DNA from: a virus
Taxonomy: Duplodnaviria > Heunggongvirae > Uroviricota > Caudoviricetes
Length of the DNA: 34,410 bases
Reading direction: 5' to 3' (one strand)
IMG/VR virus record: IMGVR_UViG_2579778652_000012
Location: 1-34,410 of that record
Shown here: positions 24,194-25,031 of the stretch, piece by piece
Layout of the letters: each line of letters starts with the position of its first letter
Position numbering within the stretch: the stretch's first letter is position 1
Program-made: the position numbers and the translations under genes
Notes under the pieces: generated by a model
The model's input: the letters and a program-made list of their open reading frames with translations, nothing else
Database searches by the model: none
What the model was told of the DNA's origin: nothing

Positions 24194-24214
24194 AAAAAAG
24201 CCCCGTTCAGGGGC
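24194..24214 (-). terminator. rho-independent terminator of the T5orf172-like gene
   Basis: Hairpin gcccc-gttca-ggggc (24200-24214) followed on the minus strand by a six-T run; begins 8 nt after the stop at 24222. Confidence 0.6.
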
Positions 24215-24221
24215 ATCAGTG

Positions 24222-25031
24222 TTATTTGCTAAGAGCAGCGAATAATCGTTCGAAATCGATAGTATCTATAGCACGCGTAAGCGCCGGAAGTTCAGCCTCA
24301 AAGTACCCGTGTCGATCGTAAAAGAAGGGACCGAAGAGCGAGGCATGTTGGATTCTACTTCGCCCCAGCCCGGACACACAGTTAAGCCCATTACCGGCTA
24401 AAAGGCTAAAAAACTTCTCTGGATTATCGTGGTAAAGCTGGGAATCAATGGTGGCGGTTAACTCTTCCATAGGGAAGCACACCCGCCCTGTCTCCCAGGG
24501 ATATTTAGTCCGAAGCATAAACATTGCTTTCAGCAATTCACATTGAGCGCGGATCGCGTCCGGTTCATAGCCAGATATGGAGACATAAGCCACGTCCCTC
24601 ATTCCTGCGTCATCTTTGAAAGTCACGATAGAAGTAACATCCAGCTCTTTTTCGAAAGAGCAAGCAGCATCTACTGGACGCTGAAGTAAATCATTCGACT
24701 TAATGCGCTCGAGAATCCCTCCCCACATATCATTTAGATATACGATATGAGCCAAAACCTTATCAAGACACTCTCGTGTAAACCATTCAGTATGCCCGCC
24801 ACCGGCGCTTTTCTCCCACGGCGCATTCCAGGGGAAAAAGGTTGCGTGTAAAGCCCGCTCAAGATTAACTATTGCCAAACGCGTACCACGATAGACCCGT
24901 GAAAGCGCAAAATCGGGACTCACTTGTAGCCCTTTAAACCGTGCCAATGGACCACATGAAATGCCGATTTTAAAAGTATCTCCATTCTCCGGCACCAGAA
25001 CGTAGAGGTAGTGTTGTTTCTCTTCTTGCAT
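24222..25031 (-). CDS. T5orf172/GIY-YIG-like domain protein (accessory gene between incA-like iterons and the par promoter)
   Basis: 269-aa ORF; N-terminal HYLYVLVPENGDTFKIGIS...RFKGLQ...LERALHATF...GGGHTEWF matches the T5orf172 (GIY-YIG superfamily) pattern, as recalled; C-terminal 170 aa unassigned; has its own terminator. Confidence 0.55.
   Translation of the reverse strand: MQEEKQHYLYVLVPENGDTFKIGISCGPLARFKGLQVSPDFALSRVYRGTRLAIVNLERALHATFFPWNAPWEKSAGGGHTEWFTRECLDKVLAHIVYLNDMWGGILERIKSNDLLQRPVDAACSFEKELDVTSIVTFKDDAGMRDVAYVSISGYEPDAIRAQCELLKAMFMLRTKYPWETGRVCFPMEELTATIDSQLYHDNPEKFFSLLAGNGLNCVSGLGRSRIQHASLFGPFFYDRHGYFEAELPALTRAIDTIDFERLFAALSK

What the first reader, a model, noticed from the sequence alone, without database searches (positions are those of the whole stretch)
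24194..25031. T5orf172/GIY-YIG-like gene with its own terminator inserted between the incA-like iterons and the par promoter
In the classical P1 replicon, as I recall it, repA-incA is followed directly by the parA promoter. Here an 810-bp ORF with a dedicated terminator sits in that gap. Its N-terminus (YLYVLVPENGDTFKIGIS ... GGGHTEWF) fits the T5orf172 branch of the GIY-YIG superfamily, which recurs in phage-exclusion and defense contexts; the C-terminal 170 aa have no domain I recognise. An accessory gene at the heart of the maintenance region is a good candidate for an exclusion or anti-plasmid function.
Basis: partly seen in the sequence, partly recalled or inferred. Interest (0 to 1): 0.65.

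Follow-up and report, generated by a model that had tools for sequence, protein, structure and literature searches.

The report
Replicon-linked nuclease gene in P1-like plasmid
A real, optional and often decaying gene sits just after the copy-control repeats of this P1-like phage-plasmid's replicon; it joins a T5orf172 (GIY-YIG-type) nuclease domain to a domain predicted to fold like a plasmid replication-initiator domain, so it is most likely a selfish or competitive nuclease aimed at related replicons, not a housekeeping gene.

Summary
A 269-aa ORF lies at 24222-25031 (minus strand) with an intrinsic terminator at 24194-24214, between the downstream iterons of repA and the par promoter. Pfam assigns residues 8-85 to T5orf172 above the curated cut-off.

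The "insertion into the classical P1 replicon" reading is only partly right. The window is a p0111-type P1-like phage-plasmid. Its whole ori-repA-iteron-ORF block (24153-26413) replaces P1's IncY block, and the ORF lies at the block's edge.

The family has only four lineages in the protein databases searched. All sit in P1-like elements in this same slot, across three RepA types. Elements lacking it exist for two of those types: P1, L016 and L104.

It is dispensable. About one in five copies carries a stop codon or an IS insertion, and nonsynonymous changes are far more frequent than in repA or parA.

The C-terminal domain is predicted to fold like the WH1 domain of iteron-binding initiators. 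The nearest relatives of the nuclease domain are fused to Rep3 domains or lie directly downstream of Rep3 genes.

Best reading (about 0.45): a homing-endonuclease-derived, replicon-directed nuclease, analogous to ICP1 Odn. No known-defence match. The gene is already annotated but uncharacterised.

The parts
24222..25031 (-). ORF of 269 aa, annotated elsewhere as 'GIY-YIG nuclease family protein', gp57 of JL22, PHROG 2876
   Evidence: Full-length homologues at 26-44% identity lie in the same slot in L003, L004 and L006.
24717..25019 (-). N-terminal T5orf172 / GIY-YIG-type nuclease domain, about aa 5-105
24225..24650 (-). C-terminal domain, about aa 128-269, predicted to fold like a Rep-initiator WH1 (winged-helix) domain. 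It is acidic (pI about 5.1) and evolves fast.
24194..24214 (-). Intrinsic terminator closing the repA-ORF unit, placed ahead of the par promoter
   Evidence: L006 has an equivalent strong hairpin followed by a T-run after its ORF.
25067..25321 (.). incA-like iteron array downstream of repA. Two or three iterons are direct and four or five inverted. The last inverted iteron ends about 34 nt before the ORF's ATG.
   Evidence: L003, L004 and L006 have the same layout, with the last iteron 20-34 nt before the ATG.
25324..26208 (-). repA, a Rep3-family initiator of the p0111 / 'RepFIB-like' type, 294 aa from the ATG at 26208
   Evidence: Pfam Rep3_C and Rep3_N. 40% identical to P1 RepA and 84% to L003 RepA. 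No terminator-like site between its stop and the ORF.
26290..26388 (-). Five origin iterons, the left end of the exchanged block
   Evidence: P1 homology resumes at 26406-26414.
24153..26413 (.). Exchangeable replicon block (ori iterons, repA, incA-like iterons, ORF, terminator) that replaces P1's IncY block. The ORF lies at its right-hand edge.
   Evidence: blastn of the window against P1. The same two junctions separate L003 from L004 on a 96-99% identical backbone.
21839..24155 (-). P1 par promoter/operator, parA (22857-24053) and parB (21839-22840). These are the conserved right flank, 100% identical in protein to P1.

Best explanation
The ORF encodes a nuclease derived from a homing endonuclease and tied to iteron-type (Rep3) replicons. 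Its N-terminal T5orf172/GIY-YIG domain is the catalytic part. Its C-terminal domain, predicted to fold like the WH1 domain of a Rep initiator, is the targeting part; it would act either by touching iteron DNA or by pairing with a RepA WH1 domain.

The gene is probably transcribed by read-through from repA across the iteron array, and it ends at its own terminator so that the par promoter is insulated. It is not needed for replication or partition.

Its likely activity is to cut iteron-bearing DNA of related P1-like elements, meaning rival replicons or alleles that lack the gene. That would either eliminate the rival (exclusion, as ICP1 Odn does to PLE origins) or provoke recombinational repair that copies the nuclease and its adjacent replicon block into the rival (homing with co-conversion).

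Shown here: gene reality, domain assignment, fixed position, patchy distribution, decay, association with Rep3 genes, and block exchange at fixed junctions.

Inferred only: nuclease activity, the target, co-transcription with repA, and the link between the nuclease and block exchange.
For: 1. Nuclease domain. It passes the Pfam threshold, and the GIY-YIG-type residues are invariant across lineages. The fold matches SLX1.

3. Relatives of the nuclease domain. Seven are fused to Pfam Rep3_N/Rep3_C. In L007 such a fusion lies directly after a Rep3 gene whose Rep part is 47% identical to the fusion's. In L061 and L062 a T5orf172 gene overlaps the end of a Rep3 gene by 11 nt.

4. Fixed slot. All four lineages of the family lie 20-34 nt after the last inverted incA iteron, between repA and parA of P1-like elements, across three RepA types.

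5. Patchy presence. P1 and 374 IncY records in PLSDB lack it, as do L016 and L104/L105. The L004/L016 pair is a clean indel.

6. Dispensable and decaying. Seven of 43 sampled copies carry internal stops and one more is split by an IS200/IS605 element. Other records carry further nonsense mutations and a 2-bp deletion. Variant codons are 31 synonymous to 35 nonsynonymous, against 48:4 for repA and 50:1 for parA.

7. Block exchange. The ORF sits at the edge of a block exchanged at the same junctions in two separate backbones.

8. Precedent. T5orf172 nucleases with initiator-derived domains cut satellite origins in an iteron-dependent way (Odn, PMC8263062). T5orf172 homing endonucleases mark boundaries of genetic exchange (PMC10448857).
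Against: - No biochemical or genetic data exist for this protein.
- Profile-profile comparison finds no sequence relation to any Rep.
- The C-terminal domain is acidic (pI about 5.1) and lacks a WH2 domain, which is unusual for a sequence-specific DNA binder. The pI of true T5orf172-Rep3 fusions, however, ranges from 5.9 to 9.4.
- The element keeps its own iterons, so self-cutting would need an unexplained immunity.
- Nucleotide diversity shows no dip around the ORF, so there is no co-conversion or sweep signature.
- In PLSDB essentially all p0111-type records carry the gene and all IncY-type records lack it, so ongoing homing is not visible in the sampled population.
Confidence: 0.45

Rival explanations
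1. The protein is a partner of RepA rather than a DNA-targeting weapon. Its acidic WH1-like domain would heterodimerise with the WH1 domain of the element's own basic RepA. It would then either tune initiator activity and copy number, or form an addiction pair in which labile RepA holds a stable nuclease in check until the plasmid is lost.
For: - The WH1 domain is the dimerisation domain of Rep3 initiators (established knowledge of pPS10 RepA and RepE). The fold hits include the dimeric forms 1hkq and 2z9o.
- The C-terminal domain has pI about 5.1 while RepA has pI 9.3-9.5, in all lineages.
- The gene lies directly downstream of repA with no terminator between them. In L061 and L062 it overlaps the rep stop codon, which suggests coupled expression.
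Against: - RepA is almost invariant within the clade while the ORF varies freely and is often broken, so there is no sign of co-adaptation.
- Many replicons of the same RepA types work without the gene: P1, L016, L104.
- The conserved catalytic residues argue against a purely regulatory role.
- The addiction idea has no direct evidence.
Confidence: 0.17
2. It is an anti-phage defence or superinfection-exclusion gene carried as prophage cargo. The nuclease would be activated on infection and would degrade phage or host DNA (abortive infection).
For: GIY-YIG and T5orf172 domains occur in conflict systems (general knowledge; papers listed). The gene is accessory, variable and often lost, as many defence genes are.
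Against: - No hit to any of the 5,027 PADLOC models and no NCBIfam hit.
- It does not lie in a known variable or defence hotspot of P1-like elements but at one fixed site inside the replicon.
- Its relatives are linked to Rep3 genes or domains, not to defence neighbourhoods.
Confidence: 0.13
3. It is an inert passenger: a former homing endonuclease now fixed in the p0111 block and drifting toward loss, with no present activity that matters to the element.
For: About 19% of sampled copies are broken, and pN/pS is about 0.3-0.4 against 0.03 or less for the neighbouring genes. There is no sweep signature.
Against: About 80% of copies are intact. The reading frame and the catalytic motif have survived divergence down to 26% identity in four lineages, which requires selection over the long term.
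Confidence: 0.15

Closest known systems
ICP1 Odn (Gp88) and the coliphage Odn-like proteins of Inny, Muut and Mt1B1_P17: origin-directed nucleases (PMC8263062, PMC10448857)
   Same: Both pair a T5orf172 catalytic domain with a domain related to a replication initiator. Both have a logical link to iteron-bearing origins, a fast-evolving targeting part, and a proposed role in conflict between mobile elements.
   Different: - In Odn the initiator-like domain is of the RepA_N family, lies N-terminal, and is recognisably similar in sequence (42% identity) to its target's RepA. Here the domain is C-terminal, WH1/Rep3-like by predicted fold only, lacks WH2 and is acidic.
- Odn is carried by a lytic phage against a satellite. 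This gene sits inside the replicon of a phage-plasmid, next to iterons of its own element.
- Cleavage has been shown for Odn and not for this protein.
Free-standing T5orf172 homing endonuclease genes of phages (ICP1 and others; PMC10448857)
   Same: Same Pfam nuclease domain. Location next to an essential (replication) gene and at a boundary of exchanged DNA. Presence/absence at a fixed site among relatives. Degenerate copies.
   Different: 87% of those endonucleases carry CapR, DUF723 or DUF4397 zinc-finger DNA-binding domains; this protein has none. Homing has not been shown here, and no co-conversion signature was found.
T5orf172-Rep3_N-Rep3_C fusion proteins of uncultured phages
   Same: Their T5orf172 domains are the closest outside relatives (hhalign probability 98%). 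They also associate with Rep3 initiators; in L007 the fusion lies directly downstream of a paralogous Rep3 gene.
   Different: They carry bona fide WH1 and WH2 domains that pass Pfam thresholds and are 340-580 aa long. The window protein has a single, sequence-unrecognisable WH1-like domain. I found no description of these fusions in the papers I searched and read.
PLE CapR, described as a domesticated endonuclease acting as a repressor (PMC8096241)
   Same: It shows that proteins related to T5orf172 homing endonucleases can be turned into regulators, which is the basis of the RepA-partner rival.
   Different: CapR works through a zinc-finger DNA-binding domain on a phage promoter. In the family studied here the nuclease motif residues are fully conserved.
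Classical P1 plasmid replicon (oriR/incC - repA - incA - Ppar; NC_005856)
   Same: Same architecture of origin iterons, a Rep3-type repA, downstream control iterons and then the par operon. The DnaA-box/GATC part of oriR and the par region are shared at 97-99% identity.
   Different: P1 has a 213-bp non-coding gap where this gene lies. Its RepA is only 40% identical and its iterons differ.

Membership tests
Pfam T5orf172 (PF10544), GIY-YIG superfamily | Profile match at or above the curated gathering score | tested here: met
   26.6 bits against a cut-off of 20, aa 8-85. P0010 and P0011 also pass. MUG113 scores 15.2 bits, below its cut-off of 22.3.
Pfam T5orf172 (PF10544), GIY-YIG superfamily | GIY-YIG-type fold and conserved motif residues (Tyr in strand 1, K/Y-I-G, Arg, Glu) | tested here: met
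Pfam T5orf172 (PF10544), GIY-YIG superfamily | Nuclease activity | not testable with these tools
   Needs purified protein.
Free-standing homing endonuclease gene | Presence/absence of the gene at one fixed site among otherwise close relatives | tested here: met
   L004 has the gene. L016 lacks it (RepA 90% and ParA 97% identical to L004), and the junction aligns cleanly. P1 lacks it, and so does L104.
Free-standing homing endonuclease gene | Degenerate or inactivated copies in the population | tested here: met
   Stops at codons 68, 93/103, 112 and 228, a 2-bp deletion, and an IS200/IS605 insertion.
Free-standing homing endonuclease gene | Sequence-specific DNA-binding domain | tested here: inconclusive
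   The domain has a WH1-like winged-helix fold by prediction, but it is acidic and matches no DNA-binding Pfam family.
Free-standing homing endonuclease gene | Signature of co-conversion or over-representation around the gene | tested here: inconclusive
   Nucleotide diversity is flat at about 0.01 across repA, the ORF and parA. The replicon block is exchanged at fixed junctions, but that does not show that the nuclease caused it.
Free-standing homing endonuclease gene | Cleavage of the cognate empty site and biased inheritance | not testable with these tools
   Needs in vitro cleavage assays and mixed-infection or co-residence crosses.
Odn-type origin-directed nuclease | T5orf172 domain joined to a domain homologous in sequence to a replication initiator | tested here: not met
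   BLASTP and hhalign against the element's own RepA, P1-like RepAs and the Rep3 fusions find nothing outside the nuclease domain. The resemblance is at fold level only.
Odn-type origin-directed nuclease | Iteron-dependent cleavage of an origin | not testable with these tools
   Needs biochemistry.
Rep3-family initiator WH1 domain (PF01051) | Profile match to Rep3_N | tested here: not met
   No Rep3_N hit even at E = 1. The relatives P0069, P0051 and P0089 do match.
Known anti-phage defence systems (PADLOC-DB 2.0) | Match to a component model | tested here: not met
   No families matched at E <= 1.

The most novel reading that the evidence does not exclude
The protein is a RepA-guided nuclease that drives replicon replacement. 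Its WH1-like domain would pair with the WH1 domain of an iteron-bound RepA and so borrow the initiator's DNA specificity. The GIY-YIG domain would then cut just beyond the last incA iteron. In elements that carry the gene, that position is occupied by the gene's own 5' end (self-immunity); in elements that lack it, the position is the bare incA-Ppar junction.

Repair from a copy that carries the gene would convert the rival's whole ori-repA-incA block. That would explain why P1-like phage-plasmids swap incompatibility groups at two fixed junctions. It would be a gene drive acting on plasmid replicons, and the first homing-type nuclease that uses a replication initiator as its targeting subunit.
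Probability: 0.12. Interest if true: 0.85.

Novelty: new variant of a known kind. Interest (0 to 1): 0.55.

Why it matters
P1-like phage-plasmids are widespread carriers of ESBL and mcr genes, and they fall into two incompatibility types, IncY and p0111. How they switch replicons, and how they compete when they meet in one cell, is not understood.

A nuclease wired into the replicon block would give a concrete and testable mechanism for replicon exclusion or replicon replacement, especially one whose targeting domain looks like a replication initiator.

The wider pattern found here also matters. One T5orf172 clade is repeatedly fused to Rep3 initiators or placed directly downstream of them. 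This suggests that origin-directed nucleases, so far known from phage-versus-satellite conflicts with RepA_N domains, also exist for the very large Rep3/iteron class of plasmid and phage replicons.

If instead the gene is only a decaying passenger, it remains a useful marker of the p0111 block and nothing more.

Tried and rejected
1. Random ORF: rejected. Homologues at 26-44% identity keep the frame and the motifs.

2. Simple insertion into P1's own replicon: rejected for this window, because the whole block differs from P1's.

3. Obligatory part of the p0111 or any other replicon: rejected. L104/L105 carry an 85%-identical RepA and the same iterons without the gene. pO111_2 and SJ46 carry nonsense alleles.

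4. Sequence homology of the C-terminal domain to RepA: sought by BLASTP against the element's own RepA and P1 RepA, by hhalign against five P1-like RepAs, seven T5orf172-Rep3 fusions and five short relatives, and by an HMM search of PDB sequences. None was found.

5. Remnant of the gene in P1's 213-bp gap: none by tblastn.

6. Known defence family: none in PADLOC or NCBIfam.

7. Own sigma-70 promoter between repA and the ORF: none found by the consensus scan, so co-transcription is inferred, not shown.

8. Structured RNA in the region: only a sub-threshold Rfam match.

9. Co-conversion or sweep signature from a nucleotide-diversity profile of 40 loci: flat and uninformative.

10. pI as a test of DNA binding: weak, because genuine T5orf172-Rep3 fusions span pI 5.9-9.4.

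11. The afdb50 fold library was not available.

Full report
**1. What is there**

The window is collinear with phage P1 (NC_005856, about 38.6-66 kb) at 93-99% identity, except for 24153-26413. The stretch 24100-25350 is 99% identical to P1-like phage-plasmids of the RCS47 / SJ46 / JL22 / phi456 / pO111 group.

Read on the minus strand, the exchanged segment holds these features in order:
- five origin iterons (26388-26290);
- repA (26208-25324; Rep3_N and Rep3_C by Pfam);
- an incA-like array with two or three direct and four or five inverted iterons (25321-25067);
- the 269-aa ORF (25031-24222), whose ATG lies about 34 nt after the last inverted iteron;
- a GC-rich hairpin followed by T6 (24214-24194).

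P1 homology resumes about 45 bp after that terminator, at the par promoter. ParA and ParB are 100% identical in protein to P1's.

**2. The gene is real and already annotated, but uncharacterised**

It matches PHROG 2876 (unknown function) end to end. RefSeq calls it a 'GIY-YIG nuclease family protein'. [quoted passage not shown] Another paper simply lists it within the replicon (PMC9037040). I found no functional study. It occurs in 401 PLSDB plasmids and 12 phage records, always at 90% amino-acid identity or more.

**3. Domains**

*C-terminal domain.* It has no Pfam, NCBIfam or PADLOC match. Its structural neighbours, however, are consistent.
- With a model of residues 106-269 alone (pLDDT 71.5, pTM 0.72), four of the top five of 48,164 chains are these same iteron-initiator domains, with 94-106 residues aligned.
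- In the viral structure library the top hit, though weak (E = 0.03), is a COG5527 plasmid-replication initiator.
- The secondary-structure order (strand, three helices, two strands at residues 183-231) is that of a winged helix.

**4. Family and distribution**

Searches of the clustered protein collections (about 15 billion proteins in all) found only three other full-length relatives:
- P0004 (44% identity);
- P0010 (26%, Salmonella enterica);
- P0011 (26%, faecal metagenome).

All three lie on P1-like contigs in exactly the same slot: repA, downstream iterons, this gene, parA, parB, the gene 23 homologue. In each, the ATG lies 20-34 nt after the last inverted iteron.

The accompanying RepA proteins are of three types:
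- window and L003, 84% identical to each other;
- L004, 83% identical to P1's IncY RepA;
- L006, 41-48% identical to all the others.

L003 and L004 share a 96-99% identical backbone but carry different blocks. The breakpoints are the same as between the window and P1: just inside oriR on one side and just upstream of Ppar on the other. The ori-repA-incA-ORF block is therefore exchanged as a unit, and the ORF lies at its edge.

The gene is nonetheless optional for the replicon.
- P1 and 374 PLSDB plasmids with 95% or more identical IncY RepA lack it, and P1 retains no remnant of it.
- L016, a Salmonella Wandsworth plasmid, has RepA 90% and ParA 97% identical to L004's, yet its last iteron joins the par promoter region within about 10 bp. 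This is a clean indel relative to L004.
- L104 and L105 carry a RepA 85% identical to the window's, with the same iterons, but no such gene.

**5. Selection**

The sample was 43 full-length copies (42 from IMG/VR and one from a GTDB genome) plus the window.

| Gene | Synonymous variant codons | Nonsynonymous variant codons | Copies with internal stops |
|---|---|---|---|
| ORF | 31 | 35 | 7 of 43 |
| repA | 48 | 4 | 0 |
| parA | 50 | 1 | 0 |

The internal stops fall at codon 112 (five copies, including the type plasmid pO111_2), codon 228 (SJ46) and codon 68. One further copy is split by an IS200/IS605 element with an internal deletion. Other records carry stops at codons 93 and 103 or a 2-bp deletion. 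That makes at least six independent inactivations in elements that are still maintained.

Over the long term, however, the frame and the motifs survive down to 26% identity. The nuclease domain is the better conserved part: 65% between the window and L003, against 31% for the C-terminal domain, while their RepAs are 84% identical. This combination is typical of selfish or conflict genes and not of housekeeping genes: long-term retention, short-term decay, patchy presence at one fixed site, and a fast-evolving non-catalytic domain.

**6. A wider association with Rep3 initiators**

The nearest outside relatives of the nuclease domain (hhalign probability 98%) include seven proteins in which T5orf172 is fused to Pfam Rep3_N (WH1) and Rep3_C (WH2).
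- In L007, a 59-kb phage-like contig, such a fusion lies directly downstream of an ordinary Rep3 gene, and the two Rep parts are 47% identical.
- In L061 and L062, short T5orf172 proteins of 271 and 315 aa overlap the stop codon of a Rep3 gene by 11 nt.
- In L008/L009 and L063/L064 the fusion stands without a neighbouring Rep3 gene among the genes called with Pfam hits.

In every non-P1 context I examined, Rep3 was either the upstream neighbour or part of the same polypeptide. This independently supports the fold-based reading of the C-terminal domain, and it ties the clade functionally to iteron replicons.

**7. Mechanism**

The closest characterised analogue is ICP1 Odn. It is a T5orf172 nuclease whose other domain is 42% identical to the RepA_N domain of its satellite's RepA, and it cuts the satellite origin only if the iterons are present (PMC8263062). 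Similar proteins have evolved repeatedly in coliphages, and T5orf172 homing endonucleases tend to lie next to essential genes and at the borders of exchanged DNA (PMC10448857).

By analogy, and given the anatomy described above, I consider it most likely (about 0.45) that this protein is a homing-endonuclease-derived nuclease. It would act on iteron-bearing DNA of related elements, either destroying a rival replicon or triggering repair that copies the nuclease-plus-replicon block.

Expression is probably by read-through from the autoregulated repA promoter. No promoter-like site and no terminator-like site lies between repA and the ORF, and in the metagenomic relatives the two genes overlap. 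The terminator then protects the ParA-regulated par promoter. All of these steps are inference.

Several points weigh against this reading:
- the acidic C-terminal domain (pI about 5.1, against 9.3-9.5 for RepA);
- the missing WH2 domain;
- the unsolved question of how the element's own iterons would escape cutting;
- the flat diversity profile;
- the near-perfect current linkage of the gene to the p0111 type.

The acidity and the WH1-only architecture fit better with binding to RepA's WH1 domain than with binding to DNA. That leads to two further readings. One is the rival explanation, a RepA partner, regulator or addiction module (0.17). The other is the most novel reading, a nuclease that uses RepA as its targeting subunit (0.12). 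Phage defence (0.13) has no positive evidence. An inert decaying passenger (0.15) is hard to reconcile with conservation across four lineages.

**8. Verdict**

- Observation: confirmed.
The domain, the terminator and the accessory nature are right. 'Insertion into the classical P1 replicon' is wrong for this window, although a true indel exists at this slot among IncY-like relatives. An anti-plasmid role is plausible but untested.
- Novelty: the gene itself is known and annotated. New here are the Rep-WH1-like reading of its second domain, its fixed position after the iterons across three replicon types, its optional and decaying status, and the broader link between this T5orf172 clade and Rep3 initiators. 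Together these make it a new variant of the homing-endonuclease / origin-directed-nuclease kind.
- Interest: 0.55.

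Noticed in passing
L007:5803-8293; also L008:7001-8707, L063:383-2125; proteins P0069, P0051, P0083, P0084, P0085, P0087, P0089: Proteins from uncultured phages fuse an N-terminal T5orf172 nuclease domain to bona fide Rep3_N and Rep3_C initiator domains. In L007 the fusion lies directly after a paralogous Rep3 gene (47% identity). I found no description of this architecture in the papers I searched and read; the T5orf172-initiator fusions those papers describe use RepA_N.
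   Followed up: partly
L061:3824-5816 and L062:3-1434: Short T5orf172 genes of 271 and 315 aa overlap the stop codon of a Rep3 initiator gene by 11 nt in two metagenomic phage-like contigs. This suggests translational coupling of initiator and nuclease.
   Followed up: partly
L057:4295-6057 (IMGVR_UViG_2645727563_000002): An IS200/IS605-type element (389-aa TnpB-like ORF plus 141-aa TnpA-like ORF, judged from the translations only) is inserted in the nuclease gene, and nt 295-523 of the gene are lost.
   Followed up: partly
L014 (pO111_2, NC_013370), L037 (a 103,445-bp IMG/VR contig, the same length as the SJ46 record): pO111_2, the plasmid after which the p0111 replicon type is named, carries a nonsense allele of the gene (codon 112). 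The contig taken to be phage SJ46, judged by its matching record length, carries one at codon 228. Work with these reference elements would therefore miss any phenotype of the gene.
   Followed up: yes
L003 and L004 (L003 6831-9019 against L004 6656-8944): Two Salmonella-type P1-like backbones 96-99% identical in their flanks carry different replicon blocks (RepA 39% identical). Each block is the counterpart of one of the two E. coli types (p0111-like and IncY-like). Both replicon types therefore persist in both backbone clades, like an old balanced polymorphism.
   Followed up: partly
L104:2501-3700 (IMGVR_UViG_2563366977_000001) and L105: A p0111-like replicon (RepA 85% identical, same iterons) lies next to tub/pmgC-like tail and head genes rather than next to parAB, with a long hairpin after the last iteron. 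The replicon block can therefore sit in a different genomic context.
   Followed up: partly
Annotations in OR339795.1 (phi456) and in PLSDB typing: The nuclease gene is annotated as 'terminase small subunit' in phage phi456. MOB-suite types the p0111 replicon as 'IncHI1B' in PLSDB records. Both labels look wrong.
   Followed up: no
window 25324-26244: The mechanical ORF for repA starts at a TTG (306 aa). Annotated homologues and the L003/L006 proteins start at the ATG at 26208 (294 aa), which I used here.
   Followed up: partly
window 1-1437 and 6056-6250: These stretches do not match the P1 segments I compared (NC_005856 35000-66000) by megablast. Window 1438-6056 is only 93% identical to P1, which corresponds in P1 to gene 16 through sit (baseplate and tail genes).
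   Followed up: no
L004:8915-8935: Just after the L004 nuclease gene, and immediately before the sequence shared with the gene-less L016, lies ACACACAGCACAT. It resembles the end of an IncY-type iteron (CCAGCACACAT). The indel may have arisen by recombination between iteron-like repeats.
   Followed up: no
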